In this document: positions 2,290 through 54,910 of the stretch, one piece after another
How the letters are laid out: every line of letters begins with the position of its first letter
Position numbering within the stretch: position 1 is the stretch's first letter
Source of the DNA: Scenedesmus sp. PABB004
Lineage: Eukaryota
Length of the DNA stretch: 64,000 nucleotides
Reading direction: 5' to 3'
Assembly: GCA_014905635.1 (NCBI GenBank)
Contig: JABVCE010000012.1
Location: forward strand, 434,001 to 498,000
Notes under the pieces: generated by a model
Databases searched by the model: none
Seen by the model: the letters and a program-made list of their open reading frames with translations, nothing else
What the model was told of the DNA's origin: nothing
Made by a program: the position numbers and the translations under genes

Positions 2290-3536
2290 GGCCCGGCCCC
2301 CGCCCAGGGGACGGCGCGGAGATGCCCCGCCCGCCGGGGCCGGCCCGGCCGCGGCGGCGGGTGTGCATGGGGTGGGTGGGGGACGGGGCCAGGACCGACC
2401 GACCAACGACGCCCGACGCATCGGGGCACGCGCGCCGCGCGGTGCGCGGTGCGCGCCGCGCGCGCGCGCCAGCGCAACGCACCATGCACGCAGCTGTGTA
2501 CATTCAACGCCAACACCACACGCGCTCACACTTGTACGCCGCGCGACGGCGGCGTGGGGGGCTGGGGACGGGCGACGCGGGGGCCGGGGGCGGGGTGGCC
2601 GCACTGCACACGTGAACAGCACCGCGGCGGGGCCTGGGCGGCGGGGCGGCGGCGCGTGCGCCGCCGCACATTATTACGCGCCCCGGTCCGCTTGCTTCGT
2701 AGTACTTTGTCTGGCGCCGTCCGCCTGGGCTGCTGCGGGGCTGCGAGAGAGTCGTGCGTGCGGGGGCGCCTGCGGCGTGCGTGCGTGGGCTCGCGCGGGC
2801 GCGCGGCGCCTGGCCTGGCCTGACCTCGCGGTGAGGGAGCGGTGCGTGCTGCACGCTTGCCCGCTGCGGCTGCAGTCGCACGCGCCGCATTCGCGTGCGC
2901 GACGCACAGCCGCTGCGCCCCCGCCGCGCGGGCCGAGCTGCAGCGCGGCACTGCACCGCCGCCGCGGTCGCGCCTGCCGGGCGCGCCGCGCGCACGGCTG
3001 GCTGGCTGTGGGAGCGTTTGTTGCGTGTTGGGAGGGAGGGCGCGGCGGCGGCCGGGGCGGCGCCGCGGGTCGGCGCCGGGGGCGGACGGTTGTGCCTGTC
3101 TTGTCTGTCTTGTCTTTTGATCGCACGCGCGCGCGACCGCTGGGGGGCAACCACCGCCATAGACCAACGACGGCGACACGGCGCGGCGGCCAGACCGGGC
3201 CGGGCGCGCGATGTACCATTCTTGCAACCGACCCGCACTGCGACCGTCGCCGCGCCCGCCCGGCAGCCGCGGCACGCGGGCGGCGGCGCAGGGCCCAGGG
3301 CGCAGGCGCCGCCCGGCCGGCTGCCCGCGCCACCGCCGAGGAGCCCCCCCCCCCCCCGGCTTGCGCGCCGCCCACCGCCCACAGCCGTACCTCAGCGCCC
3401 CTGCCGCCACGCCACAGGGCGGGGGGCGGGCGCCGCGCGCTGCTGCTGCTGCGCTCACGCCGCCCGCGCGCTCGCCCGCTGCTGCCGGTGCCCCGCCTGC
3501 TGCTCCCTGCTGACCTGCGGGCTGTCAGGTGGAACC

Positions 3537-4543
3537 ATGTCTGCTGCGCCGGCGGGCAAGCGGCGCGCCGGGCCGACCACGCGCGCGCGTGCGGCGGCCG
3601 CAGCAGCGGCAGGCGAGGCGCTGGCTGGGGTGGAGGCGGCGGCGAGGTGTGGGTCCGCTGCTGCTGCTGCTGGTGCTCTCTGGCTGGTGCTGCCCGGCGC
3701 CGCACGCGCCGCCCACAAGCCACCGCCGCCAGCAGCAGGCGCCGCCTGACCGCTCGCCGCCCGCCCCGCCCGCTGCGCCGCGCCGCCAGCAGCCTGTGGG
3801 GGGACCTGCCTGAGCCCCTCGTGCTCCGCGTCCTGAGCTTCCTGCCGCCGGCCCTGCGGGCGTGGGCTGCCAAGCTGGTCTGCAAGGCGGCGCGCGAGCG
3901 CTTCCGCGGCGCGACGGCCGTCTCGCTGCGCTGCCCCGAGCTGCCGCTGGAGGCGGTGCAGGCGGCGTGGCGGGCAGTGCGAGACGGGGCAAAGTGGCAG
4001 CAGCTGCGGCTGGCCAGGGCACGCGCGGCGTGCGGCGACGTGGCAGGGCTGGCCTGGCTGCGCGGCGCCGGCTGCGTCATGGGCCGCGTGTTTGACAGAG
4101 ACAGAGAGATTAATGTGGACGGCGTGTGCTGGACAGCAGCGTCGCACGGCCAACTCGCCGTGCTGGAGTGGGCGCGCGACCAGGGGCTGGACCTGGAGGG
4201 CGTGTGCCGCGGAGCAGCCTCTGGCGGGCACATGACGGTGCTGCGCTGGGCGCGCACGCAGTCGCCGCCGCTGCCCTGGACTGACGACCTCGTGTGCTGC
4301 GACGCCGCGGCGCGCGGCGACCTGGAGATGCTGCGCTGGTTGCGCACCCAAGCCCAGCCCGCGCCCTGGAGTGTCTGGACGTGCCAATATGTGGGAGCGC
4401 GTGGGCACCTGGAGGTGCTGCGCTGGCTGCGCGCCAACGGCTGCCTGTGGCGGCGCGACGCGTGCGAGCGCACGGCGGCACTCAAAGGCCATGAGGCCAT
4501 GGTCGCGTGGATCCAGGCGCAGCCCGCGACGCCGGACGACTGA
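3537..4543 (+). CDS. F-box-like/ankyrin-like repeat protein, cassette A (intact)
   Basis: Exons 3537-3646 and 3790-4543 (phase-2 GT-AG intron with CTGAC branch point). MSAAPAGKRRAGPTTRAR..., F-box-like LPEPLVLRVLSFLPP..LVCK, repeats of VCxxAAxxGxLxVLxWAR. Confidence 0.8.
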
Positions 4544-5403
4544 CTCTGACTCTGGCGGTTCCGATTAAATCAGCTCGGTTGCACTGGGATTAGGGCGAGG
4601 CGAGGCAGGCCCGTGACTGGGCACGCGTGCGTGCGGGGCGCTGCCTGCGGCATGGTGCGCGCGCGTGGCGAAGGAGAGGGAGAGGGAAGTTGGCGGCGGC
4701 GGGGCGGCGCATGCTGGCAACCGGCCGACCGCGCACGCAGCGCGCCTGGGCGGGTCGCGGTCCTGTGCCGTGCCCTAGCGGCGGCACGTCGCCGCGCCGC
4801 GCCCGCCGGGCAGCCGCGGCGCGGGGGCGGCGGTGCAGGGCCCAGGGCGCAGGCGCCCCCTTGCCCGCGCCGCCGCCGAGGAGCCCCCCCCCCCGGCTTG
4901 CGCGCCGCCCACCGCCCACAGCCGTACCTTAGCGCCCCTGCCACACACGCACACGCACGAGCGCCGGCCGCGCCGCCCACAGCTCCCGCACGCGCCGCGC
5001 GCCGCCGCCGCACCGCGCCCGCCCCCTCGCCCGCGGCGCACCCCTGGCCAGGCGGGGCGCGGACCTACGGGCGCCTGGTGACTAGCTCGTGCCGCCCAGC
5101 GCAGCGCCAGGCGAGCCGTGCGCGCGCGGGCAGGCGGTGAGCAGGCAGCGGCGGCGGGCGTGCAGCGCTGCGCGGCGCCCGCTGCGGGCGGCGGGGGTGC
5201 GCGGCGGGCGGGCGTGTGGCGTGGGCCGCCGGGCCTGCGCGCCCCGGGCGTCGCTGGCGGGCCCGCCGCCGCGCCGCCGCGCCGGGGCGGGGGCACGCGC
5301 CGCGCGCTGCTGCTGCCGCGCTCACGCCGCCCGCGCGCTCGCCCGCTGCTGCCGGTGCCCCGCCTGCTGCTCCCTGGTGGCCCGCAGGCTGCCAGGTGGA
5401 ACC

Positions 5404-6341
5404 ATGTCTGCTGCGCCGGCGAGCAAGCGGCTCGCCGGGCCGACCACGCGCGCGCAGGCGGCGGCCGCAGCGGCGGCAGGCGAGGCGCTGGCTGGGGCAG
5501 AGGCGGCGCCGAGGTGGGTCTGCTGCTGCCGCTGGTGCCCCTGGCTGCTGCTGCCTGGCGCCGCACGCGCTGCCCACGAGCCACCACCGACGGCAGCAGG
5601 CCCGGCCTGACTGCTCGCCGCCCGCCCAGCAGCCTGTGGCGGGACCTGCCCGAGCCCCTCGTGCTCCACGTCCTGAGCTTCCTGCCGCCGGCCCTGCAGG
5701 CGTGGGCTGCCAAGCTGGTCTGCAAGGCGGCGCGCGAGCGCTTTCGCAGCGCCAAGCGTGTCTCGCTGCGCTGCCCCGACCTGCCGCTGGCGGCGGCGCA
5801 GGAGGCGTGGCCGGCGGTGCAGGGTGACGGGCGGCAGCAGTCACGGCTGGCCAGGGCGCGTGCCGCGTGCGGCGACGTGGCGGGGCTGGCCTGGCTGCGC
5901 GGCGCGGGTTGCGACCTGCGCGGTGTGTGCTGGCAAGCAGCGGAGCACGGCCAGCTCGCCGTGCTGGAGTGGGCGCGCGGCGAGGGGCTGGAGCTGTGGA
6001 GCGTGTGCACGGGCGCAGCCGTGGGCGGGCACCTGGGCGTGCTGCACTGGGCGCGCGCGCAGACGCCGCCGCTGCCCTGGGGCAACGTCGTGTGCTTCTG
6101 GGCTGCGCAGCGCGGCGACGTGGAGATGCTGCGCTGGGCGCGCGCCCAGGCCGAGCCCGCGCCGTGGGATAGGGAGGTGTGCATGTTTGCGGCTGTGCAC
6201 GGGCACCTGGAGGTGCTGCGCTGGCTGCGCGCCAACGGCTGCCCGTGGTGGCGCGATTTGTGCGAGCGCACGGCGGCACGCGCGGGCCACGAGGCCGTGG
6301 TCGCGTGGATCCGGGCGCAGCCCGCGGCGCCGGACGACTGA
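5404..6341 (+). CDS. F-box-like/ankyrin-like repeat protein, cassette B (intact)
   Basis: Exons 5404-5513 and 5630-6341. Same architecture as A; ends AQPAAPDD*. Confidence 0.8.
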
Positions 6342-7213
6342 CTCTGACTCTGGCGGTTCCGATCAAATCAGCTCGGTCGCACTGGGATTAGGGCGAGGCG
6401 AGGCAGGCCGATGGCTGGGCGCGCGTGCGTGCGGGGGGGCGCTGCCTGCGGCCTGGTGCGCGCGTGCGCGTGTGGCGAGGGAGAGGGAGAGGGAAGTTGG
6501 CGGTGGGGAGGCAGCGCGTGCTGGCAACCGGCCGACTGCGCGCGCAGTGCAGCTGGGCGGGTTGCACTCCCGCGCGTCGCCCGCCGCTGGCGGTGGCGGC
6601 AGCACGTCGCCGCGCCGCGCCCGCCCGGCAGCGGCGGCACGCGGGCGGCGGCGCAGGGCGCAGGGCGCAGGCGCCGCCCGGCCGGCTGCCCGCGCCGCCG
6701 CCGAGGAGGCCCCGTGCGCGCGCCGCCCACAGCCGCCCACAGCCGCCGCCCGCAGCCCCCCTGCCACACGCACGCACAAGCACATTACACGCCGGCCGCG
6801 GCCCTCATCGCTCCTGCACGCACCGCGCCGCCGCCGCGCAGCGCCCGCCCCTGCCCGCGGCGCGCCCTGGCCAGGCGGGGCACGGCGCCTGGTGACTAGA
6901 TCGTGCCTCCCAGCGCAGCGCCAGGCGAGCCGCGCGCGCGGGCGGGCGGGGAGGGCAGCGGGGGGCGGGCAGCGCTGCGCGGCGCCCGCTGCGGGCGGCA
7001 GGGCCACCGGCGGTGCGCGGCGGGCAGGCGTGCGGCCTGGGCAGGGGAGTCTGCGCGCCCCTGGCGCCGCTGGCAGGCCCGCCGCCGCGCCGCCGCGCCG
7101 GGGCGGGGGCGGGCGCCGCCCGCTGCTGCTGCAGCGCTCACGCCGCCCGCGCGCTCGCCCGCTGCCGGCGCCGACTGCTGCTCCCTGGTGGCCCGCAGGC
7201 TGTCAGGTGGCAG

Positions 7214-8266
7214 CTGTCTGCTGCGCCGGCGGGCAAGCGGCACGCCGGGCCGACCACGGGCGCGCGGGCGGCTGCAGCGGCGGCAGCGGCAGGCGAGGCG
7301 CCTGGCGGCGCGGACGCGGCGCCGAGGTGGGTCCGTCGCTGCTGATGCTGCTGCTGGCCCACCCTGGCTGGTGCTGCCTGGCGCGGCACGCGCTGCCCAC
7401 AAGCCACCACCGCCGGCAGCGGCGGCGCCTGACCGCCGCCCGCCTGCCCGCCCCACGCGCCCGCCGCGCCCCGTGCCGCCAGCAGCCTGTGGGGGGACCT
7501 GCCCGAGCCGCTCGTGCTCCACGTCCTGAGCTTCCTGCCGCCGGCCCTGCAGGCGTGGGCTGCCAAGTTGGTCTGCAAGACGGCGCGCGAGCGCTTCCGC
7601 GGCGCCACGGTCGTCTCGCTGCGCTGCCCCGAGCTGCCGCTGGCGGCGGTGCGGGAGGCCTGGCGGCCGGTGCGGGGTGGCGATCCGTGGCAGCAGCTGC
7701 AGCTGGCCAGGGCGCGTGCGGCGTGCGGCGATGTGCCGGGGCTGGCCTGGCTGTGCGGCGCCGGCTGCGACATGCACAGTGGCGTGTGCTACGAAGCAGC
7801 GAAGCATGGCCATGTCCCTGTGCTGGAGTGGGCACGCGACCAGGGGCTGGACCTTCGGGACGTGTGCCACGACGCAGCTTATGGCGGCCAGCTGGGTGTG
7901 CTGCGCTGGGCGCGCGCGCAGACGCCGCCGGTGCCATGGGACGGCATGGAGTGCTGGCACGCTGCGGAGCGCGGCGACCTGGAGATGCTGCGCTGGGCGC
8001 GCGCCCAGGCCGAGCCCGCGCCGTGGAACAGCGAAGTGTGCTGCGTGGCCGCTGAGAACGGGCACCTGGAGGCGCTGCGCTGGCTGCGTGCCAACGGCTG
8101 CCCGTGGCAGCGCATGCAGTGCGAGGACGGGGCGTTTGTCCTTGGCCACGAGGCCGTGGTCGCGTGGATCCGAGCGCAGCCCGTGTCGCCGGACGACGGC
8201 CCTGTCTGGGACGACATCCGCAATGCCGCCATAAGAACAATGCAGTCACTCACTAACATACTCTGA
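7214..8266 (+). pseudogene. F-box-like/ankyrin-like repeat gene, cassette C; start codon ATG changed to CTG (pseudogene or non-AUG start)
   Basis: The position homologous to the ATG of other copies reads CTG TCT GCT GCG. Exons 7214-7326 and 7483-8266 are otherwise in frame, with an extended tail DDGPVWDDIRNAAIRTMQSLTNIL*. Confidence 0.6.
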
Positions 8267-8712
8267 ATCGCCGGGTGCTGGCGGCGGCGGCACGTCGCCG
8301 CGCCGCGCCCGGCAAGCCGCGCACCGTGCGGGCGGCGGTGCAGGGCGGCGGTGCAGGGCCCAGGGCCCAGGGTGCCGCCCGGCCGGCTGCCCGCGCTGCC
8401 GCCGAGGAGGCCGCCCGCGCGCTTGCAACTTCTCTGCCACCATCTCAGGGCTGAGCTGCCGCCGACACGGGCAGGACGCGCCGCGCGCGAGCAGCGCACG
8501 CGCCTCGCTCGCCCAGCGGCGGCGCGCGGAGGAGCGGCCGCAGGGGTGGGGCAGCTCGGGCGCGGCACTCGCCAGCTCTAGCAGGGGCACGCGGGGCGGG
8601 TCGCGCTGCAGGCTGCCCGCGGGGCTGGCGCCAGCAATCGCGACCAGCTGGCGGTTGCCGGCGCCGGGCGTCGCGCCCGGGCGGGCCCCGCTCACCGGTG
8701 AACGCGCTGCTG

Positions 8713-17665: not shown

Positions 17666-18222
17666 CCCGCCCCGCGCCGTCGGAGGCGCGCGCGGCGCGG
17701 CGGCGCCCGCGCGCGGCGCCGCGCGGGCGCGGCGCGGCGGCGGCGGCAGCAGCGCGGCGCGCGCCGGCGCAGCAGCGGCGGCGGCGGCGGCAGCTGGGGC
17801 GGGGAGCTGGCGCCGGCGCCGGCGCATGACGCGGCTACCACGGCGCAGGCGCGCGCCCCGGCTAGGCTAGGCCGGGGCAGCAGCAGGCGGGCGAACCGGG
17901 CTAGCGAGCGCTCGCTCGCTAGCGAGCGAGCGGGGGACGGAGGGGGTCCTCTCTGCACTTGGGCACGCACGCATCGCTCGGTGGCGGCCCGCGCGGCCAG
18001 CCGCGGCGCCGCCTGCGCGCGGTGAGCGCCCGGCCGCCGCCGCGTCTCTCTTTTTGTCTTGCGTCGCGCGCAGCGCGCCGCTGGGCGGCGGCTGCAGCGA
18101 GCGGAGCGGCCGCTGCTGCTGCAGCGCCTGCGTACGGAAGGGGGCGCGCGCGAGGGCGGGAGGGGGGAGGCAGCAGGTAGAGGGCCCGAGCGGTTTAATC
18201 CAACGTGCGCGATGCAGTTGGG

Positions 18223-19200
18223 TCAGACGTCGTCCACCGCCGCGGGCTGCGCCCGGATCCACGCGACCACGGCCTCGTGCCGTCTGTGTGCCGCGCGCTC
18301 GCACATGGCGCGCCGTTGGCAGCCGCCAACGGCGCCGTTGGCACGCAGCCAGCGCAGCACTTCCAGGTGCCCGTGCTCAGCCGCCGCCCAGCACACCCAC
18401 TCGCTCCACGGCGCGGGCTCCGCCTGGGCGCGCGCCCAGCGCAGCATCTCCGCGTCGCCGCGCCAAGCAGCATGGGAGCACACGTTGTTGCCCCAGGGCA
18501 GCGGCGGCGTGTGCGCGCGCGCCAGTGCAGTGCGGCCAGCTGCCCGGCAGAGGCTGCTTCTTCGCACACGCGCCCCAGGTCGAGCCCCTCCCCGCGCGCC
18601 CACTCCAGCACGGCGAGCTGGCCGGCCTGCGCCGCTGCGTGCCCCACACCAAAGTCCATGACGCAGCCGGCGCCGCGAAGCCAGGCCAGCCCCGCCACGT
18701 CGCCGCACGCAGCGCGCGCCCCGGCCAGCCGCTGCTGCGGCCAGCCAACCTGCACCGCCTGCCAGGCCGCCTGCACCGCCGCCAGCGGCAGGTCGGGGCA
18801 GCGCAGCGAGACGCGCTTGGCGCTGCGAAAGCGCTCGCGCGCCGCCTTGCAGACCAGCCTGGCGGTCCACGCCTGCAGGTCCGGCGGCAGGAAGCTCAGG
18901 GCGTGGAGCACGAGCGGCTCGGGCAGGTCCCCCCACAGGCTGCTGGCGGCGCGGCGCAGCGGGCGGGGCGGCGGGGCGGGCGGCGAGCGGTCAGGCGGCG
19001 CTGCTGCCGGCGGTGGTGGCTTGTGGGCAGCGCGTGCCGTGCCAGGCAACACCAGCCAGGGGGCACCAGCTGCAACGGCAGCGGACCCACCTCATCGCCG
19101 CCTCTGCCCCAGCCAGCGCCTCGCCTGCCGCCGCTGCGGCCGCGGCGCGCGCGCTCGTGGTCCGCCCCGCGTGCCGCTTGCCTGCCGGCGCAGCAGACAT
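18223..19200 (-). pseudogene. F-box-like/ankyrin-like repeat gene, cassette D (frameshifted); cassette extends to about 19810
   Basis: Exons 19200-19091 and 18942-18223. A 1-nt loss at about 18525 (CAC TGG CGC versus consensus CAC TGG GCG CGC) could be an assembly error. Boundary motif at 19784-19810. Confidence 0.65.
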
Positions 19201-20433
19201 GGCGCCGCCTGACAGCCTGCGCGCCAGCAGGGAGCAGCAGGCGGGGCGACGGCAGCAGCGGGCGAGCGCGCGGGCGGCGTGAGCCCGGCAGCAGCAGCGC
19301 GCTGCGCCCGCGCCCCCGCCCCGCGCCCGCGCCCGCGTCCCGGCGCGGCGGCGCGACGGCGGGCCCGCCAGCGACGCCCGAGGCGCGCAGACCCGGCGGC
19401 CCACGCCACACGCCCGCCCGCCGCGCACCGCCGGTGCCCCCGCAGCCCGCGGCGGGCGCCGCGCAGCGCGGCCCGCCCGCCGCCGCTGCCCTCCCCGCCC
19501 GCCCGGCGCGCCCGGCTCGCCTGGCGCTGCACTGGGAGGCACGAGCTAGTCACCAGGAGCCCGCAGATCCGCGCCCCGCTTGGCCAGGGGCGCGCGCCGC
19601 GGGCGGGGGGCGGGCGCTGGGCGGCGGCGGCGCGGCGCGTGCGGGCGCTGTGGGCGGCGCGGCTGGCGCTTGTGCGTGTGTGCGCGTGTGGCAGGGGCAC
19701 TGAAGGCGGCGGCTGTGGGCGGCGGGGCGGCGCGCACGGAAGGGCCCTCCTCGGCTGCACGGCGCGGGCAGCCGGCCGGGCGGCGCCTGCGCCCTGTGCC
19801 CTGCACCGCCGCCGGATGGCTGGCGCGCCGGGCGTCAACCAGGCCGTTTAAACCGACCGCCAGCGCACCCCCTTCATCATATGATGATGGCCGAGACCGA
19901 TGGATTGATGGTGCTGGAGCAGGGTGGCGCGCGCGCTCAGCCGCCGTCTCAGCGGCGGGGCGGCGAGCAGGGAACGGGCGGCGCGTCGCACACAACGCAT
20001 GGCAAGTGAAGCCCCACCGGTGGGGCGCCGGTACCGGCGCGGCGCACGCGGTCAAGCAGTCAAGCAGCAGCCCCCGGGGAAGACGGCGTCGCCCTGGCGG
20101 CACGCGCGTTTGTCGACACGACCCCGTCCCAGTGCCTTGGCCCTGCTGCCCCCCTCCCCTGGCAAACGGTTCGACCAACGCCACCCCGCCCGCGCGCAAC
20201 GCGCCCCCCGCTGCGTCTTGCCGCCCCGCCCTGTCAGCCCGCCTGCACCGTTGCGTGCGGGCGACCCCCACTGTGTGTGCAGTGTTTGAGAACACGTTGG
20301 ATGGGCACACACGTTGGCAGGCCCGTTCCCCCGCAGCGGGCGCTGCGGGCCCATCAAAGCAACGCCGCCGACGCCGCCCCCCCCCCCCCCGCGCGCAGCC
20401 CCGGCCCCTCCCCCCGACCCAGTCCACCTTTGC

Positions 20434-27140: not shown

Positions 27141-27179
27141 CGCGAGGCAACCCGCCGCCGCGCGCACGCGCCCGCCCCC

Positions 27180-33079: not shown

Positions 33080-34940
33080 GCGCGTGGGGGCCTCCTCGGC
33101 CGCGCGGCGCGGGCAGCCGGCCGGGCGGCGCCTGCGCCCTGGGCCCTGCACCGCCGCCCGCGTGCCGCGGCTGCCGGGACGGCGCGGCGCGGCGACGTGC
33201 CGCCGCCAGCGCCCAGCGACGGCGCGGGAGCGCGACCCACCCAGACACGCTGCGTGCGCGGTCGGCCGGTTGCCAGCGCGCGCCGCCTCGCCGCCGCCAA
33301 CTTCCCCCTCCCTCGCACCACACGCGCGCGCGCGCACCAGGCCGCAGGCAGCGCCCCCCGCACGCACGCCCAGCCATTGGCCTGCCTCGCCTCGCCCTAA
33401 TCTCAGTGCGACCGAGCTGATTTGATCGGAACCGTCAGAGTCAGAGTCAGTCGTCCGGCGACGCGGGCTGCGCTCGGATCCGCGCAACCATGGCCTCGCG
33501 GCCGTTGCGCGCCGCCTCGTATTCGCACATGGCGCGCCGCCACGGGCAGCCGCTGCCGCGCAGCCAGCGCAGCACTTCCAGGTGCCCACGCGCTCCCACA
33601 TATTGGCACGTCCAGACACTCCAGGGCGCGGGCTCGGCCTGGGCGCGCGCCCAGCGCAGCGCCTCCAGGTCGCCGCGCCGTGCAGCAAACCAGCACTCCA
33701 TGCCGCCCCATGGCAGCGGCGGCGTCTGCGCGCGCGCCCAGCGCAGCACATCCAGCTGCCCGAGCATGGCTGCGTCGAGGCACACTTCACACATGTCCAG
33801 CCCCTCGCGCCGCGCCCACTCCAGCACGGCGAGCTGGCCGGCACCTGCTGCCGTGGAGCACATGCCACAGTCCATGTCACAGCCGGCGCCGCGCAGCCAG
33901 GCCAGCCCCGCCACGTCGCCGCACTCCGCGCGAGCATTGGCCAGCTGGTTCTGCCGATCCACATCACCCCCGACTGCCCGCCACGCCGCCTGCACCGCCG
34001 CCAGCGGCAGCTCGGGGCAGCGCAGCGAGACGACCGTGGCGCCGCGGAAGCGCTCGCGCGCCGCCTTGCAGACCAGCCTGGCGGTCCACGCCCGCAGGGA
34101 CGGCGGCAGGAGGCTCAGGACACGGAGCACGAGGGGCTCGAGCAGCTCTGACAGCAGGATGCTGGCGGCGCGCGGGGCACGGCGGGCGGGCGGTAAGGCG
34201 GCGCGTGCTGAGAGGGCGGTGGTTTGTGGGCAGCGCCCGCCTGGCCAGGCAGCCCCGGCCAGGGACGCCTTGGCGGCAGCAGCAGCGGCCCACCTCGCGT
34301 CAGCGTCCTCCGCCAGCGCCAGACCGCTGAGCGAATGCTCTACCGCCGAGGCCATGGCGCCAACCTGACAGCCTGCGGGCCACCAGGGGGCAGCATGCAG
34401 GGCACCGGCAGCAGAGGGCGAGCGCGCGGGCGGCGTGAGCGCAGCAGCAGCAGCAGCGCATGGCGCCCGCCCCCGCCCCGGCGCGGCGGCGCGGCGGCGG
34501 GCCTGCCAGCGACGCCCGAGGCGCGCAGGCCCGGCGGCACACGCGACACGCCCGCCCGTCGCGCACCGCCGCTGCCCCCGCCGCCCGCAGCGGGCGCCGC
34601 GCAGCGCGGCCCGCCCGCCGCCACTGCCCTCCCCGCCTGCCCGCGCGCCCGGCTCGCCTGGCGCTGCGACGGGCGGCACGACCTAGTCAACAGGCGCCCG
34701 CAGGTCCGCGCCCCGCCTGGCCAGGGGCGCGCCGCGGGCGGGGCCGGGCGCTGGGCGGCGGCGGTGCGGCGCGTGCGGGCGCTGTGAGGGGCGCGGCCGG
34801 CGCTCGTGTGCGTGTGTGGCAGGGGCGCTGAGGGGGGCGGCTGTGGGCGGCGGGGCGGCGGGCGTGGGAGGCGTCCTCCCTCAGCGGCGGCGCGGGCAGC
34901 CGGCCGGACGCGGCGCCTGGGCCCTGGGCCCTGCACCGCC
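33080..34940 (-). mobile_element. Cassette G with boundary repeat at both ends
   Basis: Boundary motif at 34914-34940 and 33129-33155. The trailer matches the A-B and B-C spacers. Confidence 0.6.
33447..34355 (-). CDS. F-box-like/ankyrin-like repeat protein, cassette G (intact, alternative exon 1)
   Basis: Exons 34355-34294 (MASAVEHSLSGLALAEDADA) and 34161-33447; phase-2 intron. Confidence 0.8.
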   Translation of the reverse strand: MASAVEHSLSGLALAEDADARWAAAAAAKASLAGAAWPGGRCPQTTALSARAALPPARRAPRAASILLSELLEPLVLRVLSLLPPSLRAWTARLVCKAARERFRGATVVSLRCPELPLAAVQAAWRAVGGDVDRQNQLANARAECGDVAGLAWLRGAGCDMDCGMCSTAAGAGQLAVLEWARREGLDMCEVCLDAAMLGQLDVLRWARAQTPPLPWGGMECWFAARRGDLEALRWARAQAEPAPWSVWTCQYVGARGHLEVLRWLRGSGCPWRRAMCEYEAARNGREAMVARIRAQPASPDD

Positions 34941-44421: not shown

Positions 44422-45167
44422 CGGCGGCGGCGGCGGCGCGCCGCGCTCAGGAGCAGCGCTCGGGGGAGCGGCCGATTCTTTGCACATAGGGCGGCGCGCC
44501 GGGCTGAGACACTGCCCGCTGCGCCGGAAGTGTTCATGCAACGTCTGCCACGCTGGCTGGGCGGCGGCGACCGGCGGTGCAGGGCCCAGGGCGCAGGCGC
44601 CGCCCGGCCGGCTGCCCGCCGCCGCCGAGGAGCCCCCCCCCCCCCCCGCGTGCCGCCCACAGCTGCCCACAGCCGCCTCCCCCCCTGCCACACACGCACA
44701 AGCGCCGGCTGCACCGCCCACAGCGCCCGCACGCACCGCGCCGCCGCCGCCCAGCCCCCGCCCCCGCCCACGGCGCGCCCCTGGCCAGGCGGGGCGCGGA
44801 TCCGCGCCCCGTCCGGACCTGCGGGCGCCTGGTGACTAGGCCGTGCCGCCCAGCGCAGCGCCAGGCGAGCCGGGCGCGCGGGCAGGCGGGGAGGGCAGCA
44901 GCGGCGGCGGGCGGGCCGCGCCGCGCGGCGCCCGCTGCGGGCGGCGGGGGCTGCGGCGGTGCGCGGCGAGCGGGCGTGTGGCCTGGGCCGCCGGGCCTGC
45001 GCGCCCCGGGCGCCGCTGGCAGGCCCGCCGCCGCGCCGCCGCGCCGGGGCGGGGGCGGGCGCCGCGCGCTGCTGCTGCTGCGCTCACGCCGCCCGCGCGC
45101 TCGCCCGCTGCTGCCAGTGCTCCGCCTGCTGCTCCCTGGTGGCCCGCAGGCTGTCAGAGGCGGTGCC

Positions 45168-46149
45168 ATGTCTGCTGCGCCGGCGGGCAAGCGGCGCGAG
45201 GCGGCGGCGCGCGGCGAGGAGGCGAGGTGGGCGCGCAGCCGTTGGCCAGGCGGGCGCTGAGCACGGGCCAGCAGCCGCAGCGCGCGCCGCCCCACCGCTG
45301 GCCCGCCGCCGTGCCCCCCCCCCCCCCAGCAGCCCGCCGCCGGACCTGCCCGAGCCGCTCGTGCTGCACGTCCTGGGCTTCCTGCCGCCGGCCCTGCGGG
45401 CGTGGACCGCCAGGCTGGTGTGCAAGGCGGCGCGCGAGCGCTTCCGCGGCGCCACGGTCGTCTCGCTGCGCTGCCCCGAGCTGCCGCTGGCGGCGGTGCA
45501 GGAGGCGTGGCGGGCGGTGCAGGGTGCCGGGTTAACCCTGCAGCGGCCGCAGCTGATCGGGGCGCGCGCGGCGTGCGGCGACGTGGCGGGGCTGGCCTGG
45601 CTGCACTGGGCCGGCTGCGGCATGGGCGGCGTGTGCTTGCAAGCAGCGGAGCACGGCCAGCTCGCCGTGCTGGAGTGGGCGCGCGGCGAAGGGCTGGACC
45701 TAAAGGAAGTTTGCAAAGCAGCAGCATGGCACGGGCAGCTCGCCGTGCTGGAGTGGGCGCGCGACCAGGGGCTGGACCTGCGGGACGTGTGCTGGGCAGC
45801 AGCCGGGGGCGGGCACCTGGATGTGCTGCACTGGGCGCGCGCGCAGGCGCCGCCGCTGCCGTGGGGCGACAACGTGTGCTCCTGGGCTGCACGGCGCGGC
45901 GACCTTGAGATGCTGCGCTGGGCGCGCGCCCAGGCCGAGCCCGCGCCGTGGGGCGAGCACGTGTGCTGCGTGGCGGCTCAGTTTGGGCAGCTGGAGGTGC
46001 TGCGCTGGCTGCGCGCACACGGCTGCCCCTGGTGGCGCGGCGAGTGCGAGCGCAAGGCGGCACTCTACGGCCGCGTGGCCGTGGTCGCGTGGGTCCGGGC
46101 GCAGCCCGCGTCGCCGGACGATGGCCCTATCGTTGGCTTTTTTGGCTGA
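45168..46149 (+). CDS. F-box-like/ankyrin-like repeat protein, cassette H (intact, one extra repeat)
   Basis: Exons 45168-45226 and 45330-46149. Two consecutive GQLAVLEWAR repeats; tail DDGPIVGFFG*. Confidence 0.8.
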
Positions 46150-47014
46150 AGCTCGGACGCGGACCTCGATTGGGGCGAGGCAAGGCGGGCCCGTGGCTGG
46201 GCGCGCGTGCGTGCGCGGGGCGCTGCCTGCGGCCTGGTGCGCGCGTGCGCGCGTGGCGAGGAAGAGGGAGAGGGAAGTTGGCGGCGGCGAGGCGGCGCGT
46301 GCTGGCAACCGGCCAACCGCGCACACAGGGTGGCTGGACGGCCTGCGCTCCCGCGCCGTCGCTGGGCACTGACAGCTGCGGCACGTCGCCGCGCCGCGCC
46401 GCGCCCGCCCGGCAGCGGGGGCACGTGGGCGGCGGGCCCAGGGCGCAGGGCCCAGGCGCCGCCCGGCCGGCTGCCCGCGCCGCCGCCGAGGAGGCCCCCC
46501 ACGCGCGCCGCCCCGCTGCCCACAACCGCCACCCTCAGCGCCTCCCTGCCACACGCACACGCGCACAAGCGCCCGCCGCGGCCCTCACAGCTCCCGCACG
46601 CACCGCGCCGCCGCCGCCCAGCGCCCGCCCCCGCCCGCGGCGCGCCCCTGGCCAGACGCGGCGCGCCCCTGCGGGCGCCTGACGGTCGGGCCGTGCCGCC
46701 CAGCGCAGCGCCAGGCGAGCCGGGCGCGCGGGCAGGCGGGGAGGGCAGCAGCAGCGGCAGGCGGGCCGCGCTGCGCGGCGCCCGCTGCGGGCGGCGGGGG
46801 CACCGACGGTGCGCGACGGGCGGGCGTGTGGCGTGGGCCGCCGGGCCTGCGCGCCTCGGGCGTCGCTGGCGGGCCCGCCGCCGCGCCGCCGCGCCGGGGG
46901 GGCCCGGGCGCCGCGCTCTGCTGCTGCTGCGCTCACGCCGCCCGCGCGCTCGCCCGCTGCTGCCGGTGCCCCGCCTGCTGCTCGCAGGTGGCCCGCAGGC
47001 TGTCAGGTGGCGTC

Positions 47015-47995
47015 ATGGCCTCGCTGATAGAGCATTCGCTCAGCTGTCTGACGCTGGAGGGCGCACCGAGGTGCGTGTGCTGCTGATGTTGACGCCCCTA
47101 GCCGGCACCCCTGGCTGTTTTGAGCCTGGGCGCGCGGCACTGGCGACGAGGCGAGGTGTTGCCCCATGGCTGCTGCTGCCTGGCGCTGCACGTGCTGCCC
47201 GCAAGCCACCGCCGCCGGCAGCAGGCGCCGCCTGACCGCTCGCCCTGCCCGCCCTGCTCGCCCCGCACGCCCGCCGCGCCCGCCCGCGCCGCCAGCAGCC
47301 CGCTGCCAGAGCTGCCCGAGCCGCTCGTGCTGCACGTCCTGAGCTTCCTGCCACCGGCCCTGCAGGCGTGGGCTGCCAAGCTGGTCTGCAGGGTGGCGCG
47401 TGAGCGCTTCCGTGGCGCCACGGTCGTCTCGCTGCGCTGCCCCGAGCTGCCGCTGGCGGCGGTGCAGGAGGCCTGGCGGGCGGTGGGGATTGATGAGGAG
47501 CAGCAGCGCCAGCTGTCAGCGGCGCGCGCGGCATCCGCCGACGTGGCGGGGCTGGCCTGGCTGCGCGGCGCCGGCTGCGACATGTGGGCCGCATGCTCGG
47601 CAGCAGCGGAGCACGGCCACCTCGCCGTGCTGGAGTGGGCGCGCGACCAGGGGCTCGACCCAGGGGACGTGTGCTGGGCAGCAGCTCAGGGCGGGCGGCT
47701 GGATGTGCTGCGCTGGGCGCGCGCGCAGGCGCCGCCGCTGCCGTGGGGCGACAACGTGTGCTCCTGGGCTGCGCAGCACGGCGACCTGGAGATGCTGCGC
47801 TGGGCGCGCGCCCAGGCCGAGCCCGCGCCGTGGGACCGGGACGTGTGCTGGCGGGCGGCTGAGTACGGGCAGCTGGAGGCGCTGCGCTGGCTGCGCGCAA
47901 ACGGCTGCCCCTGGTGGCGCGGCGAGTGCGAGTTCCTGGCAGCCAGCAACAGCCACCAGGCCGTGGTCGTGTGGATCCGGGCACAGCCTGAGTGA
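47015..47995 (+). CDS. F-box-like/ankyrin-like repeat protein, cassette I (intact, alternative exon 1)
   Basis: Exons 47015-47070 (MASLIEHSLSCLTLEGAP) and 47296-47995. Confidence 0.8.
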
Positions 47996-48626
47996 GCTGG
48001 CGTCGGCTTTGGCGGCGCGTGGCGAGGGAGAGGGAGAGGGAAGTTGGCGGCGGGGCAGCGCGCTGGCAACCGGCACAGCCCAATTGAGTCGCCGTCGGCT
48101 TCTGCCGCGACCGGCGGTACGGGCCCAGGGCGCAGGCGTGGGGCACGTGCCGCCCGTTGCATCGCGGCTGTTGCACTGCAGGCGAGAAAGCAGTGCAGTG
48201 CCGTGGCGGCGCCGGGTCGCATGTCGGCGCGCTGAGGGCCCGCCGTCGAAAAACAGCGCGCGCCGCTGCGGGGGCCATCACTGGACGACCCCCCTCTCCG
48301 TCGCCCCTCGCTCCCTCGCCGCCCGGTGGAACGCCGGCCCGCGCGCCGTGCGCGGCGCCGCCCCTCCCCCAACACAACGTGCGCGCGGCGCGCGCCGCCG
48401 CCGCGCTGCCCCTCTGCGGGGCTGCCGCGCGGCGGCACGGCGGCAGCAGGGGCCGCCGCTGCGGCCGCTCGCGCGCCGCTCGCTCGCGCCGTGGCGGGCC
48501 ACGCGGCGGCCTCACCCAACGGGCGGCCGCATCATCAGGTCTCTTCATCAGGAGGCCTCATCCGCAGGCCTGATCAGGCCTCATATCCATCAGGGGGGCC
48601 CCATCAGGCCTCACCAGGCGGCCCCA

Positions 48627-52962: not shown

Positions 52963-53220
52963 GGGCTGACCCGCGCGCACCTCGTAGGAGTCGATGGAGT
53001 CGGCGATTCTGTCAGCCGACTGGCTGCTGATGTTGGGCGTGAGCATGGCCGCCGGCGTCGTCATGGCGGCGCGGGGGCGCGCGGTGGGCGCGGTGCTGAT
53101 GGCGCGCGGCGGCCAGGCGCGCTGGTGCACTGGACGCCGGGGGCGCGGCGTCGCTGAGAGTGGTGCGGGGGAGCGGGGGCGCTGGCGCGCGGGCGCCGAA
53201 AAGGCGCAGCAGCGCGAGGG
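52963..53220 (-). repeat. Direct duplicate of sterol methyltransferase exon 1 with its donor site and 5' flank (copy of about 51091-51350)
   Basis: The coding part MTTPAAMLTPNISSQSADRIADSIDSYE and the GT donor are identical (53064-52981 versus 51192-51109). The upstream flank has diverged. Confidence 0.9.
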
Positions 53221-53296
53221 GCGGGCCGCGAGGGGCTGTGGAGCGGGGAGGGCGGGCCCCCCGCGGCCGCAGCTGTCCTTTCAAATCACGTCGAGT

Positions 53297-54306
53297 TCAA
53301 AAATCAAACAAATAATCAAGTCCAGGGCCGTCGTCTGCCGCCGCGGGCTGCGCCCGGATCCACGCGACCACGACCTCGTGCCCGCTGCGTGCCGCCGCGT
53401 ACTCGCACTCGCCGCGCCACCACGGGCAGCCGTTGGCGCGCAGCCAGCGCAGCGCCTCCAGGTGCCCGTGCGCTGCCGCCCCCCTGCACGCGCTCTTGCC
53501 CCACGGCGCGGGCTCGGCCTGGGCGCGCGCCCAGCGCAGCATCTCCAGGTCGCCGCGCTGAGCAGCGTAGTAGCAAACCCCATAATCTGAGCCACCCCAC
53601 GTCAGCGGCGGCGCCTGCGCGCGCGCCCAGCGCAGCACACCCAGCTGGCCGACCATGGATGCGTCCTCGCACACGCGCTCCAGGTCCAGCCCCTGGTCGC
53701 GCGCCCACTCCAGCACGGCGAGCTGGCCGTGCTCCGCTGCAGCGTAGCACACGCCGCCCATGCCGCAGCCGGCGCCGCGCAGCCAGGCCAGCCCCGCCAC
53801 GTCGCCGCACGCGCCGCGCGCGCTGGCCAGCCGCAGCTGCTGCCAGGTTGCCCCGTGTCGCGCCGCCCACCAGGCCTCCTGGACCGCCGCGAGCGGCAGC
53901 TCGGGGCAGCGCACCGAGACGACCGTGGCGCCGCGGAAGCGCTCGCGCGCGGCCTTGCAGACCAGCCTGGCGGCCCACGCCTGCAGGGCCGGCGGCAGGA
54001 AGCTCAGGACGTGGAGCACGAGGGGCTCGGGCAGCTCCGGCAGCAGGGCGCTGGCTCGGCGGGGCGGGCGGGGCGGCGGGGCGGGCGGCGAGCGGTCAGG
54101 CGGCGCTGCTGCCGGCGGTGGCGGCTTGTGGGCAGCGCATGCGGCGCCAGGCAGAAGCAGCAGCCAGCGGGCACCAGCAGCAGCCAGCGGACCCACCTCG
54201 GCGCCGCCTCCGCGCAGCCGGGCGCGTCGCCTGCGGCGGCTCCGGCCGCGGCGCGCGCGCGCGTGGTCGGCCCGGCGCGCCGCTTGCCCGCCGGCGCAGC
54301 AGACAT
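53297..54306 (-). CDS. F-box-like/ankyrin-like repeat protein, cassette J (intact); cassette extends to about 54883
   Basis: Exons 54306-54197 and 54050-53297; tail DDGPGLDYLFDF*. Boundary motif at 54857-54883. Confidence 0.8.
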
Positions 54307-54910
54307 GGTGCAGCCTGACAGCCTGTGGGCCACCAGGGAGCAGCAGGCGGGGCACCGGCAGCAGCGGCGAGCGCGCGGGCGGCGTGAGCGTGGCAGCAGC
54401 AGCGGGCGGCGCGCGTCCCCGCCCCAGCGTGTCCGCGCGGCGGCGGGCCTGCCAGCGGCGCCCGGGGCACGCAGGCCCGGGTGATCACCCAACACGCCCG
54501 CCCGCTGCGCACCGCCGGTGCCCGCGCCGCCCGCAGCGGGCGCCGCGCAGCGCGGCCCGCCCGCTGGCGCTGCCCTCCCTGCCTGCCCGCGCGCACGGCT
54601 CGCCTGGCGCTGCTCGCGGCGGCACGGCCTGGTCACCAGGCGCCCGCAGGTCCGTGCCCCGCCTGGCCAGGGGCGCGCCACGGGCGGGGACGGGCGCTGC
54701 GCGGCGGCGGCGCGGTGCGTGCGGCCGCTGTGGGCGGCCTGCCGGCGCTTGTGTGCGTGTGTGGCAGGGGCGTTGAGGGCGGCGGCTGTGGGCGGCGGGG
54801 CGGCGCGCGCGCAGGGGGCCTCCTCGGCGGCGGCGCGGGCAGCCGGCCGGGCGCAGCGCCTGCGCCCTGCGCCCTGCACCGCCCGCCCGCCCGCTGCCGA
54901 GCTGCACAGC

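What the first reader, a model, noticed from the sequence alone, without database searches (positions are those of the whole stretch)
3282..54883. Conserved boundary motif marks cassette ends and junctions (att-like or short terminal direct repeat)
Seen: GGCGG(T/C)GCAGGGCCCAGGGCGCAGGCG, usually followed by CCGCCCGGCCGGCTGCCCGC and built on a 7-bp CAGGGC(C/G) period, occurs 14 times: + strand at about 3282, 4829, 6647, 8347, 44573, 46431, 48113; - strand at about 19810, 26715, 29645, 31476, 33155, 34940, 54883. In D, E, G, H and J homology begins abruptly at this motif. In C, F, G and I homology ends within or shortly after another copy, and tandem units share one copy. Inference: this motif-unit-motif pattern is what integration or excision through a core site, or a TRIM-like shared terminal repeat, would produce. 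The motif could instead simply be a promoter retained by selection.
Basis: partly seen in the sequence, partly recalled or inferred. Interest (0 to 1): 0.82.

Follow-up and report, generated by a model that had tools for sequence, protein, structure and literature searches.

The report
Shared upstream edge of duplicated algal genes
A 27-base G-rich motif sits at the upstream edge of about ten copies of an ordinary F-box/ankyrin gene in a very GC-rich green alga. It most likely marks the start of the genes' shared promoter region, where rearrangements also tend to end, rather than the end of a mobile element.

Summary
The motif (M) occurs 14 times, against 0 in shuffles, always in the sense orientation of the unit it leads. 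Ten copies lie 255-610 nt upstream of the ATG of an intron-containing F-box-like/ankyrin gene. This is a lineage-specific family whose nearest relatives are in Scenedesmus sp. PABB004. Four copies are truncated units that lose family homology 27-107 nt after M starts.

Boundaries do cluster at M, but the att-like and TRIM-like readings are not supported:
- No recombinase, transposase or RT in 219 ORFs.
- No target-site duplications, no PBS, and no consistent terminal-repeat edges.
- Three single units have no 3' copy of M.
- Ten of 11 "cassettes" are the same cellular gene.

M is also not the absolute 5' limit. A second block (A, GCAACCGGCCGACCGCGCAC) lies upstream at variable spacing. Non-coding parts are as similar as coding parts, and the units are mosaics (13 of 45 pairs significant), so gene conversion homogenises them.

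Best reading (0.55): M is the first block of the family's promoter/5'-UTR module. The arrays grew by tandem duplication and conversion. Deletion in a compact genome trimmed the flanks, and three truncated copies now sit upstream of unrelated co-oriented genes. No RNA data could be obtained, so the TSS is unknown. This is an ordinary kind of feature with a modest residual puzzle.

The parts
3282..3308 (+). M copy leading unit U1
   Evidence: 0 mismatches. A shortened tail remnant lies upstream, with the A block at -58.
4829..4855 (+). M copy leading U2 (tandem-internal, full tail upstream)
   Evidence: 0 mismatches
6647..6673 (+). M copy leading U3 (tandem-internal)
   Evidence: 1 mismatch
8326..8373 (+). 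M copy of a truncated unit that ends array 1. It carries an extra 13-nt duplication. Family homology runs from -79 to about +75/+95.
   Evidence: (3 mismatches)
19784..19810 (-). M copy leading single unit U4. Homology starts at about -3.
26689..26715 (-). M copy leading single unit U5. The A block lies at -28, after a deletion of about 90 nt.
29619..29645 (-). M copy of a truncated unit after U8. A full tail lies upstream and homology ends at +35. An LRR-like gene follows on the same strand.
   Evidence: (2 mismatches)
31450..31476 (-). M copy leading U8. Upstream homology reaches -135 to -142 and starts 38 nt after the EAF-like stop.
33129..33155 (-). M copy of a truncated unit. A full tail lies upstream and homology ends at +103-107. 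The ATG of the EAF-like gene then follows at 33028.
   Evidence: (0 mismatches)
34914..34940 (-). M copy leading U6, starting 40 nt after the stop codon of the upstream co-oriented gene
44573..44599 (+). M copy leading U9 (first unit of array 3, about 400 nt after the GH1 gene)
46425..46458 (+). M copy leading U10 (register-shifted variant with three heptads)
48113..48139 (+). Degenerate M copy ending array 3, with no family homology after it. The next gene is convergent.
54857..54883 (-). M copy leading single unit U11
3282..4543 (+). U1, F-box-like/ankyrin gene unit: ATG at 3537, intron about 3647-3789, stop at 4541-4543. A 5' region deletion puts M only 255 nt before the ATG.
4829..6341 (+). 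U2 gene unit (ATG at 5404)
6647..8215 (+). U3 gene unit. The ATG is lost at the homologous position (7214), so it is probably a pseudogene or uses another start.
18195..19810 (-). U4, single gene unit (ATG at 19200). Its 3' UTR is unrelated to the tail apart from a short GGATTAAAC..GCTCGG match.
25463..26715 (-). U5, single unit with internal deletions and no intact F-box ORF (pseudogene)
29934..31476 (-). U8 gene unit (ATG at 30914). Its 3' part is 96-100% identical to U2.
31639..33028 (-). Unrelated EAF-like gene lying between two M copies
   Evidence: (PF09816, E 6.9e-5, below the curated cutoff)
33447..34940 (-). U6 gene unit (ATG at 34355, variant exon 1)
44573..46149 (+). U9 gene unit (ATG at 45168)
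46425..47995 (+). U10 gene unit (ATG at 47015, variant exon 1)
53297..54883 (-). U11, single gene unit (ATG at 54306)
4544..4828 (+). Example of the roughly 285-nt 'tail' (stop codon to next M) shared by tandem-internal units. It contains the A block GCAACCGGCCGACCGCGCAC at about -112 to -127 from M.

Best explanation
M is the first strongly conserved block of a 1.5-1.8 kb cellular gene unit. The unit runs: upstream block A, a variable spacer, M, about 250-600 nt of non-coding leader, exon 1, an intron, and an exon 2 that encodes an F-box-like/ankyrin protein.

The family grew by tandem duplication. All tail|M junctions are the same junction, inherited by descent. Copies or pieces of arrays were then dispersed. 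Gene conversion between copies, including inverted copies more than 20 kb apart, keeps the stretch from M to the stop codon 80-100% alike, while the sequence outside it decays or is deleted.

I infer that M plus the next 50-100 nt is promoter-proximal, either a core promoter or the start of the 5' UTR. On this reading it survives as the outermost functional piece when a compact, deletion-prone genome trims the flanks. It also survives in truncated last units, whose promoter stub now lies directly upstream of an unrelated co-oriented gene (EAF-like, LRR-like, TSP1/EGF).

Shown here: the anatomy, the gene family, the mosaics, and the lack of mobile-element features. Inferred: promoter function, trimming by deletion, and promoter capture.
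For: 1. All 14 M copies are in the sense orientation of the unit or array they belong to. Ten lie 255-610 nt upstream of the family ATG.
2. The unit is a normal gene. ATG, GAG|GTGGGT donor, CTGAC branch-like site and CAG acceptor are conserved. Ank_4 scores 33.8 bits against a cutoff of 22.7. 8 of 10 units keep an intact spliced ORF. The best relatives are four Scenedesmus sp. PABB004 proteins, one of them a fusion of two tandem genes.
3. Non-coding parts are as similar as coding parts: M+100 0.877, 5' region 0.85, pre-ATG 0.90, intron 0.785, exon 2 0.79-0.86. In a GENECONV-like permutation test, 13 of 45 unit pairs have significant pair-specific identity tracts. U2/U8, for example, are 100% identical over 181 nt but only about 85-90% elsewhere.
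4. A second block, A, lies upstream of M in the full tails at -112 to -127. It lies at -11 to -58 in 4 of 6 copies that lack a full tail (binomial tail 4.7e-5). Two conserved blocks with a variable spacer is what a regulatory region looks like, not a recombination core.
5. The EAF-like gene's whole upstream intergenic space is family tail + M + about 100 nt. The one truncated M that is followed by a convergent gene (48113) is the most degenerate copy.
6. The likely host genome is compact: 39.8 Mb and 1.31% repeats for PABB004 (passages of PMC12571836). In the window, an upstream gene's stop lies only 40 nt before M.
7. There are no mobile-element proteins, TSDs, PBS or TIRs.
Against: There is no transcript evidence at all, so the TSS, the proposed 5'-UTR intron (donor CTG|GTGACTAG, acceptor CAG|GTGGAACCATG) and promoter activity are inference only.

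M is not exceptionally conserved. Its 27-column window has identity 0.923 and ranks 204 of 1497 windows in the unit.

M is intact in front of two probable pseudogenes (U3, U5), so its conservation need not reflect selection.

Selection plus deletion does not obviously predict that all four truncated units end within 27-107 nt of M's start. A uniform expectation is about (107/1800)^4, or 1e-5 (my arithmetic). Nor does it predict that 4 of 7 left edges lie within 25 nt of M.

Only 3 of the 4 truncated copies are followed by a co-oriented gene, which is not significant on its own. For the 8347 copy, the nearest coding signal is about 700 nt away.

The rest of the genome could not be searched, so I cannot say whether M occurs at other genes or alone.
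Confidence: 0.55

Rival explanations
1. M and the roughly 100 nt after it form a breakage or recombination hot zone: a slippage-prone G-rich heptad repeat, possibly also a promoter-associated double-strand-break site. On this reading the zone itself created the array ends and truncations and seeds gene conversion into the units. This could hold together with a promoter role.
For: - Edges cluster near M. 4 of 4 truncated units end at +27 to +107. 4 of 7 left edges lie within 25 nt of M.
- The deletion upstream of 26715 ends about 8 nt before M.
- M shows slippage variants: a 13-nt duplication at 8347 and a heptad change at 46432.
- Identity is higher in the 5' part (0.85-0.90) than in exon 1, the intron and 3' exon 2 (0.76-0.79), and it is lost in the 3' UTRs of single units. 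This resembles a conversion polarity gradient.
Against: - None of the significant conversion tracts starts or ends at M; they lie at alignment columns 477-1793.
- The identity trend is not monotonic: exon 2a is 0.856.
- G-rich repeats are everywhere in an 80% GC window, and heptad pieces are not enriched outside M.
- Survivorship explains part of the clustering, because copies without a promoter or CDS would not persist.
- There is no direct recombination data.
Confidence: 0.22
2. M is an att-like core site. Units are cassettes inserted or excised by a site-specific recombinase encoded elsewhere, which leaves one M at each junction.
For: - Three arrays have the layout M-unit-M-unit-M.
- An unrelated gene (EAF-like) is bracketed by M copies.
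- M has a 7-bp palindromic frame, GGCGGYG...CGCCGCC.
Against: - No tyrosine or serine recombinase, transposase or RT in 219 ORFs.
- U4, U5 and U11 have no 3' M.
- The EAF-like 'cassette' keeps about 100 nt of family leader and 135 nt of family tail, so its edges are not at M.
- 10 of 11 M-led segments carry the same gene.
- Crossover at a core would not leave homology ends at four different offsets (+27, +35, +75, +105).
- No such system is known in green algae (my recollection, no call).
Confidence: 0.04
3. Tail+M is a terminal direct repeat of a TRIM- or LTR-like retroelement, and neighbouring elements share their repeats.
For: Direct repeats of 27-400 nt (tail + M + leader) bracket U6, U8 and the arrays.
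Against: - The repeat edges differ at every locus: left 0 to -142, right +27 to +107.
- No TG..CA ends, and no PBS-like site next to M. The only hit with up to 2 mismatches is inside the U6 coding sequence.
- No TSDs beyond the control distribution, and no RT, gag or integrase.
- The internal region is a spliced cellular gene that still has its introns.
Confidence: 0.02
4. M encodes a structured RNA element, either a 5'-UTR hairpin or a small RNA gene.
For: A 7-bp stem closing the heptads is predicted in all copies.
Against: 0 of 17 predicted pairs show a compensatory change. No Rfam family matches anywhere in the window. The stem is broken in the 4829 and 54883 copies.
Confidence: 0.03

Closest known systems
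Tandemly arrayed gene families under concerted evolution (unequal exchange plus gene conversion)
   Same: Head-to-tail units share one inherited junction. Sharing of identity between copies is mosaic. Introns and leaders are as similar as exons. Homology falls off sharply outside the converted block.
   Different: Copies are also dispersed and inverted within 64 kb. Every array ends in a unit cut off just after the same motif. One such stub precedes an unrelated housekeeping-type gene.
Scenedesmus sp. PABB004 hypothetical proteins HT031_003968, _006133, _004001 and _003954 (F-box-like + ankyrin)
   Same: 56-75% amino-acid identity to the window's units. Exon 1 has the same MS..GKRRAGPTTRARA start. 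One annotated protein is a fusion of two tandem genes.
   Different: They are not identical to any unit here, and their DNA could not be fetched. Whether M precedes them is therefore unknown.
Recombination-hotspot or minisatellite-core motifs at breakpoints of non-allelic recombination
   Same: M is a short G-rich periodic motif at which rearrangement ends cluster.
   Different: There is no recombination data here, and conversion tracts do not end at M. The resemblance to known cores is my recollection only.
Integron attC/attI cassette arrays
   Same: The layout is site-cassette-site, with one site shared per junction.
   Different: There is no integrase. The cassettes carry their own leader and introns. 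The sites are not at the true homology edges. This is a eukaryotic nuclear genome.
TRIM/LTR elements with shared terminal repeats
   Same: Direct repeats flank internal segments, and neighbours share a repeat.
   Different: There are no defined repeat ends, PBS, PPT or TSD, and the internal part is a cellular gene.

Membership tests
Tandem gene family with concerted evolution | Head-to-tail repeats of a gene unit with a common junction | tested here: met
   Three arrays (3, 1+1 and 2 units) have the same tail|M junction...CACGCGGGC|GGCGG, in 8 copies.
Tandem gene family with concerted evolution | Pair-specific identity tracts (mosaicism) beyond a tree-like pattern | tested here: met
   13 of 45 pairs have p < 0.05/45 in a permutation test of runs of agreeing polymorphic sites. 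The nearest neighbour changes along the unit. Caveat: the permutation ignores rate variation along the unit.
Tandem gene family with concerted evolution | Non-coding parts homogenised like coding parts | tested here: met
   Mean pairwise identity is 0.85-0.90 in the 5' region, 0.785 in the intron and 0.79-0.86 in exon 2.
Core promoter / TSS-proximal element | Fixed orientation and position upstream of the coding start | tested here: met
   14 of 14 copies are in sense orientation. 10 lie 255-610 nt before the family ATG. At the EAF-like gene, M ends 100 nt before the ATG.
Core promoter / TSS-proximal element | Transcription starts at or near the element | not testable with these tools
   No sequencing run could be listed and no genome is held.
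Core promoter / TSS-proximal element | Conservation above the neighbouring neutral sequence | tested here: inconclusive
   The M window has identity 0.923 and ranks 204 of 1497. The adjacent 27-mer has 0.970 and is the third-best region. Gene conversion confounds this measure.
Integron-like / site-specific cassette system | Recombinase gene associated with the array | tested here: not met
   219 ORFs of 200 aa or more were scanned against Pfam at E <= 1e-5. None is an integrase, recombinase, transposase or RT. This covers the window only.
Integron-like / site-specific cassette system | A site copy at both ends of every cassette, with homology edges at the core | tested here: not met
   U4, U5 and U11 lack a 3' copy. 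Edges lie at 0 to -142 and at +27 to +107, not at one point.
Integron-like / site-specific cassette system | Circular excised cassettes, or empty sites with one core | not testable with these tools
   No reads or related genomes were available.
TRIM / LTR retroelement | Terminal direct repeats with identical, defined ends (TG..CA) | tested here: not met
   Repeat extents differ at each locus, and M starts with GGCGG.
TRIM / LTR retroelement | PBS next to the 5' repeat, and target-site duplication | tested here: not met
   One PBS-like hit with 2 mismatches lies inside the U6 coding sequence. The motif searched was recalled from memory. The longest flank-shared k-mers are 3-8 nt, against a control 95th percentile of 9.
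DNA transposon / Helitron | Terminal inverted repeats or a transposase/Rep-helicase | tested here: not met
   No inverted M lies near any unit end, since all M copies are accounted for. No such Pfam family was found.
F-box protein with ankyrin repeats | Ankyrin repeats above the curated threshold | tested here: met
   PF13637 Ank_4 scores 33.8 bits against a cutoff of 22.7 for U1. It was also found in 9 further unit ORFs.
F-box protein with ankyrin repeats | F-box domain above the curated threshold | tested here: inconclusive
   PF12937 scores 15.9 bits against 24.3, and PF00646 scores 14.2 against 20.5, both at residues 3-36 (LPEPLVLRVLSFLP).

The most novel reading that the evidence does not exclude
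M is an active recombination site in a eukaryotic nuclear genome. At M, gene-sized segments, including an unrelated gene such as the EAF-like one, would be inserted, excised or exchanged. The arrays would then be cassette arrays built by a dedicated or hotspot-driven mechanism, not by ordinary tandem duplication.
Probability: 0.06. Interest if true: 0.8.

Novelty: new member of a known kind. Interest (0 to 1): 0.3.

Why it matters
If the main reading is right, this is a clean small example of three things happening together in an extremely GC-rich, compact algal genome. A lineage-specific F-box/ankyrin family amplifies. Its copies are homogenised by gene conversion. Promoter stubs are left behind that may now drive neighbouring genes, such as the EAF-like elongation-factor gene. 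That would help gene annotation in such genomes: PABB004 has only 7,092 annotated genes, and none of the family matches found was flagged as encoded by this window. It would also offer a candidate compact promoter module.

The residual puzzle is why every truncation stops just after the motif. That makes the locus a reasonable place to look for promoter-linked recombination or breakage, but nothing here calls for a new kind of mobile system.

Tried and rejected
- **Whole genome of the window:** none is held, so I could not look for solo motifs, motif-flanked recombinases or genome-wide breakpoint statistics.
- **Sequencing runs:** none was listed, and no RNA holder was listed, for window:29000-36000. 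No reads could be laid, so there is no TSS, expression or circle evidence.
- **Earlier findings:** nothing turned up for this genome or for this sequence.
- **Public collections:** a 44-mer and the 27-mer were scanned in metagenome contigs (cap reached). The 27-mer was scanned in genome contigs and viral contigs. All gave 0 matches.
- **RNA structure:** the consensus hairpin has 0 of 17 compensatory pairs, and there are no Rfam matches in the window. I rejected the structured-RNA reading.
- **Larger segmental duplications behind the dispersed copies:** I masked the units and self-compared the rest of the window. Flanks of different loci share nothing. The only hits were an unrelated 271-nt repeat (51091/52963), a weak inverted match (16339/36483), and GC-rich low-complexity hits.
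- **RNA-mediated copying from a TSS at M:** rejected. All copies keep the intron, and no poly(A) tracts follow the single units.
- **M as a site that already existed at the neighbouring genes' promoters** (NAHR between independent sites): rejected. The truncated copies carry the family tail upstream, so they are pieces of family units.
- **A 9-mer sharing test between flanks and tails:** too noisy in 80% GC DNA. Controls averaged 19 shared 9-mers per 250 nt. I used the AT-containing GCAAC(CG) block instead.
- **TGTAA as a poly(A) signal, to place transcript ends:** only 2 occurrences in 64 kb, so it is not informative.
- **My first blastn scoring (+1/-1):** it produced much GC-rich noise, so I used only the long hits.
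- **A first gene-model script:** it crashed and was rewritten. The 'longest model' splice sites it prints are not the biological ones; I took those from the alignment.
- **Literature:** 'PABB004' gave 15 papers (listings only, plus passages of PMC12571836). By title and abstract, none deals with repeats or this gene family. Two broader searches (listings only) found nothing specific.

Full report
**Observation**

The 27-mer GGCGGYGCAGGGCCCAGGGCGCAGGCG (M) matches 12 places at up to 3 mismatches. None of 100 dinucleotide-preserving shuffles gave a match. Looser matching and direct reading add two more. The copy at 46432+ has three CAGGGCS heptads with the first replaced. The copy at 48113+ is degenerate with one indel.

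The follow-on 20-mer is exact at 8 of the 14 copies and near-exact at 3 more. The heptad core CAGGGC[CG]CAGGGC occurs exactly 12 times, only inside M copies. The window is 77-83% G+C throughout, so short G-rich words are common. Pieces of M longer than about 10 nt are still not found elsewhere. The one exception is an 11-13 nt piece inside exon 2 of the same gene family.

**What the units are**

Each of ten M copies leads a 1.5-1.8 kb unit. Reading U1 shows:
- an ATG at 3537;
- a 37-codon exon 1;
- a GT..AG intron;
- a 250-codon exon 2 that begins ...LPEPLVLRVLSFLP and carries GHLEVLRWLR-type repeats.

Pfam gives Ank_4 above its cutoff and F-box-like and F-box below theirs. The best database relatives are four hypothetical proteins of Scenedesmus sp. 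PABB004, with E from 2e-90 to 1e-61. More distant ankyrin proteins of other green algae follow. By tblastn those four proteins are 56-75% identical to all ten units, and one of them is an annotated fusion of two tandem genes. Passages of PMC12571836 give PABB004 a 39.8 Mb genome with 78.5% G+C, 7,092 genes and 1.31% repeats. From this I infer that the window comes from that alga or a close relative. It is a eukaryote, which would explain why no prokaryotic genome is held.

The start codon, donor GAG|GTGGGT, a CTGAC branch-like site and the CAG acceptor are conserved across units. U3 has lost the ATG. U5 has deletions that remove the acceptor and the start of the F-box. 8 of 10 units keep an intact spliced ORF.

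**Layout**

| Locus | Strand | M copies | Units | How it ends |
|---|---|---|---|---|
| Array 1 | + | 3282, 4829, 6647, 8347 | U1, U2, U3 | truncated unit at 8347 |
| Array 2 | - | 34940, 33155, 31476, 29645 | U6, then U8 | truncated units at 33155 and 29645 |
| Array 3 | + | 44573, 46432, 48113 | U9, U10 | truncated unit at 48113 |
| Single units | - | 19810, 26715, 54883 | U4, U5, U11 | no 3' M |

In array 2, U6 is followed by M with about 100 nt of family leader, then an unrelated gene, then 135 nt of family tail, M and U8, and finally M+8.

The unrelated gene starts MAGLAQELAADRPLRLG...YYTFSYDFKP. It gives a weak EAF match (PF09816, E 6.9e-5, 23.6 bits against a cutoff of 26).

Tandem-internal copies share a tail of about 285 nt between the stop codon and the next M, always with the same tail|M junction. 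That points to one ancestral tandem duplication.

**Where homology starts and stops**

I made local alignments against four reference copies and read them by eye. Positions are relative to the first base of M.

Left edges:

| Copy | Left edge |
|---|---|
| 19810 | about -3 |
| 54883 | -6 to -25 |
| 44573 | about -13 |
| 34940 | about 0 |
| 31476 | -135 to -142 |
| 3282 | solid from -45, with more degraded tail further up |
| 26715 | see below |

The 26715 copy at first looked like a clean start at M. In fact it has GCAACCGACCGCGCACG at -28 and GCGAGGCGG at -54. These match the tail at about -120 and -136. So a roughly 90-nt stretch between that block and M has been deleted.

I call this upstream block A (GCAACCGGCCGACCGCGCAC). 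It lies at -112 to -127 in six full tails and at -47 at 48113. The AT-containing core GCAAC occurs within 70 nt upstream in 4 of the 6 copies that lack a full tail, where 0.043 per copy is expected (binomial tail 4.7e-5). Only the 3282 and 26715 instances are long enough to be called homologous with confidence.

Right edges of the four truncated units are +27 (48113), +35 (29645), +75 to about +95 (8347) and +103-107 (33155).

The three single units lose similarity around the stop codon. Their 3' UTRs fall into several unrelated types, and U4 shares only a GGATTAAAC..GCTCGG stretch with the tail.

If truncations fell uniformly over a 1.8 kb period, all four within 107 nt would have a probability of about 1e-5. 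Even within the 285-nt intergenic tail, 4 of 7 left edges within 25 nt of M has a binomial tail of about 2e-3. Both figures are my own arithmetic on the and 48 values. But M is not a single crossover point, and it is not always the outer limit.

**Are the edges structural, or just selection on a gene?**

Mean pairwise identity by segment:

| Segment | Identity |
|---|---|
| First 100 nt (M+100) | 0.877 |
| Rest of the 5' region | 0.85 |
| Last about 115 nt before the ATG | 0.90 |
| Exon 1 | 0.76 |
| Intron | 0.785 |
| Exon 2 | 0.79-0.86 |

Non-coding sequence is thus as similar as coding sequence. Co-duplicated neutral flanks of the same age should therefore still be recognisable. They are not. 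With the units masked, flanks of different loci share nothing beyond low-complexity GC repeats, an unrelated 271-nt repeat and one weak inverted match.

Two explanations remain: repeated breaks near M, or old copies whose M-to-stop block is kept alike by gene conversion. Conversion is clearly at work. U2 and U8 are inverted and 24 kb apart, yet they are 100% identical over 181 nt and 96% over another 278 nt. Meanwhile U2 is closest to U5 in exon 1 and the intron (97% and 94%) and to U6 in the 5' region. In a permutation test on runs of agreeing polymorphic sites, 13 of 45 pairs pass a Bonferroni threshold, with tracts in different places for different partners. The test ignores rate variation along the unit. 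None of these tracts begins or ends at M.

**Tests of the mobile-element and att readings**

- 219 stop-to-stop ORFs of 200 aa or more were scanned against Pfam at E <= 1e-5. They give only Ank_4 (the units), TSP1/EGF, UQ_con, adh_short, GH1, EF-hand and two low-complexity matches below their cutoffs. There is no integrase, recombinase, transposase, RT or Rep-helicase.
- There is no inverted M near any unit end.
- Flank-sharing k-mers at six loci are 3-8 nt long, against a control 95th percentile of 9. The only PBS-like hit, from a motif I recalled, lies inside a coding region.
- The palindromic frame of M (GGCGGYG...CGCCGCC) has no compensatory support (0 of 17 pairs). Rfam finds nothing in the window.
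- The single units lack a 3' M.
- The EAF-like 'cassette' is bounded by about 100 nt of leader on one side and 135 nt of tail on the other, not by M itself.

These results argue against integron-like, TRIM/LTR-like, TIR or Helitron-like membership. The caveat is that only 64 kb could be examined.

**Most likely mechanism**

M is the first block of the family's promoter/5'-UTR module. It always points toward the gene. It is preceded by a second conserved block at variable distance. It is followed by a conserved leader that may hold a 5'-UTR intron: CTG|GTGACTAG is present in 8 of 10 units (my count from the alignment), and CAG|GTGGAACCATG lies just before the start codon. That intron is inference.

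The genome is tightly packed. The stop codon of the gene upstream of U6 is 40 nt from M, and the EAF-like stop is 38 nt from block A of U8.

In such a genome, useless DNA next to a functional block tends to be lost. That would sharpen edges at the outermost functional element. It would also reduce dead last units to promoter stubs. Three of the four stubs precede co-oriented genes:
- the EAF-like gene, with its ATG 100 nt after M;
- the LRR-like gene at 29239-27126;
- the TSP1/EGF gene from about 9051.

The fourth stub faces a convergent gene and is the most decayed copy. For the EAF-like gene, the entire upstream intergenic space is family tail + M + leader. If that gene is expressed, its promoter must lie in this family-derived piece.

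Against this reading: M is only moderately outstanding in conservation (0.923, rank 204 of 1497 windows). It is intact before two probable pseudogenes. And three co-oriented neighbours out of four is not statistically meaningful.

**Main rival**

The M-proximal zone may be a breakage or recombination hot zone. That would explain the tight clustering of truncations. It fits the slippage variants of M. It also fits the roughly 5'-high, 3'-low identity profile. It is compatible with a promoter role. I give it 0.22 as the primary cause.

The att-like cassette idea keeps about 0.04-0.06. It is not excluded, because the recombinase could lie elsewhere and neither circles nor empty sites could be tested.

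**What could not be done**

No sequencing run was listed. The motif was not found in the metagenome, prokaryote-genome or viral collections. No earlier notes exist. TSS position, genome-wide distribution of M, solo copies and strain polymorphism therefore remain open. Literature searches (listings only; passages) found no description of this family or motif.

**Verdict**

This is a real and tidy feature of an ordinary kind: the 5' edge of a tandemly amplified gene family that is homogenised by gene conversion. There is a modest unexplained excess of rearrangement ends just after the motif. Interest 0.3.

Noticed in passing
window 31639-33028 (-): An EAF-like (ELL-associated factor) gene sits between two family units. 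Its whole upstream intergenic region is family tail + M + about 100 nt of family leader. Its stop codon is only 38 nt from block A of the next unit. The Pfam match is weak (E 6.9e-5, below the cutoff) because an in-frame intron interrupts it.
   Followed up: partly
window 51091-51358 and 52963-53230: A 271-nt direct repeat (92.6% identical, spacing 1872 nt) is unrelated to the family. On the - strand it seems to hold an ATG and first exon (MTTPAAMLTPNISSQ...). One copy starts about 90 nt after the stop of U11.
   Followed up: partly
window 16339-16511 vs 36483-36304: An inverted match of 77.6% over about 180 nt lies between the UQ_con (E2) gene region and the large - strand gene upstream of U6. 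These may be paralogous exons.
   Followed up: no
window 3952, 5813, 18749, 18770, 25766, 30470, 33989, 45492, 45513, 47458: Exon 2 of the family units contains GGCGGTGCAGG(CG). This equals M with its two inner heptads removed. There are 10 in-unit occurrences of the 11-mer across 8 of the 10 units, where 0.4 is expected for the whole window. The meaning is unknown.
   Followed up: partly
whole window: Composition is extreme: 77-83% G+C in every 2-kb bin. Third codon positions in coding stretches are about 92-96% G+C. TGTAA, the usual chlorophycean poly(A) signal as I recall it, occurs only twice in 64 kb. One of the two lies 33 nt upstream of M at 54883.
   Followed up: partly
window 6647-8215 (U3) and 25463-26715 (U5): These are two probable pseudogenes of the family. 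U3 has lost the ATG. U5 has lost the intron acceptor and the start of the F-box, and has a deletion of about 200 nt in exon 2. Both still carry a near-perfect M.
   Followed up: yes
window 26996-27143, 44179-44254, 28246-28396: Simple repeats lie next to family loci. An 11/34-nt CCAACCGACCGCCAAA-type array lies upstream of U5. (TGTGGG)n lies just upstream of array 3. A run of about 50 GCG units lies inside the LRR-like gene.
   Followed up: no
window 47015 (U10) and 34355 (U6): Two units carry a different exon 1 (MASLIEHSLS... type) but share the same leader and exon 2. Exon 1 has therefore been swapped or has diverged within the family.
   Followed up: no
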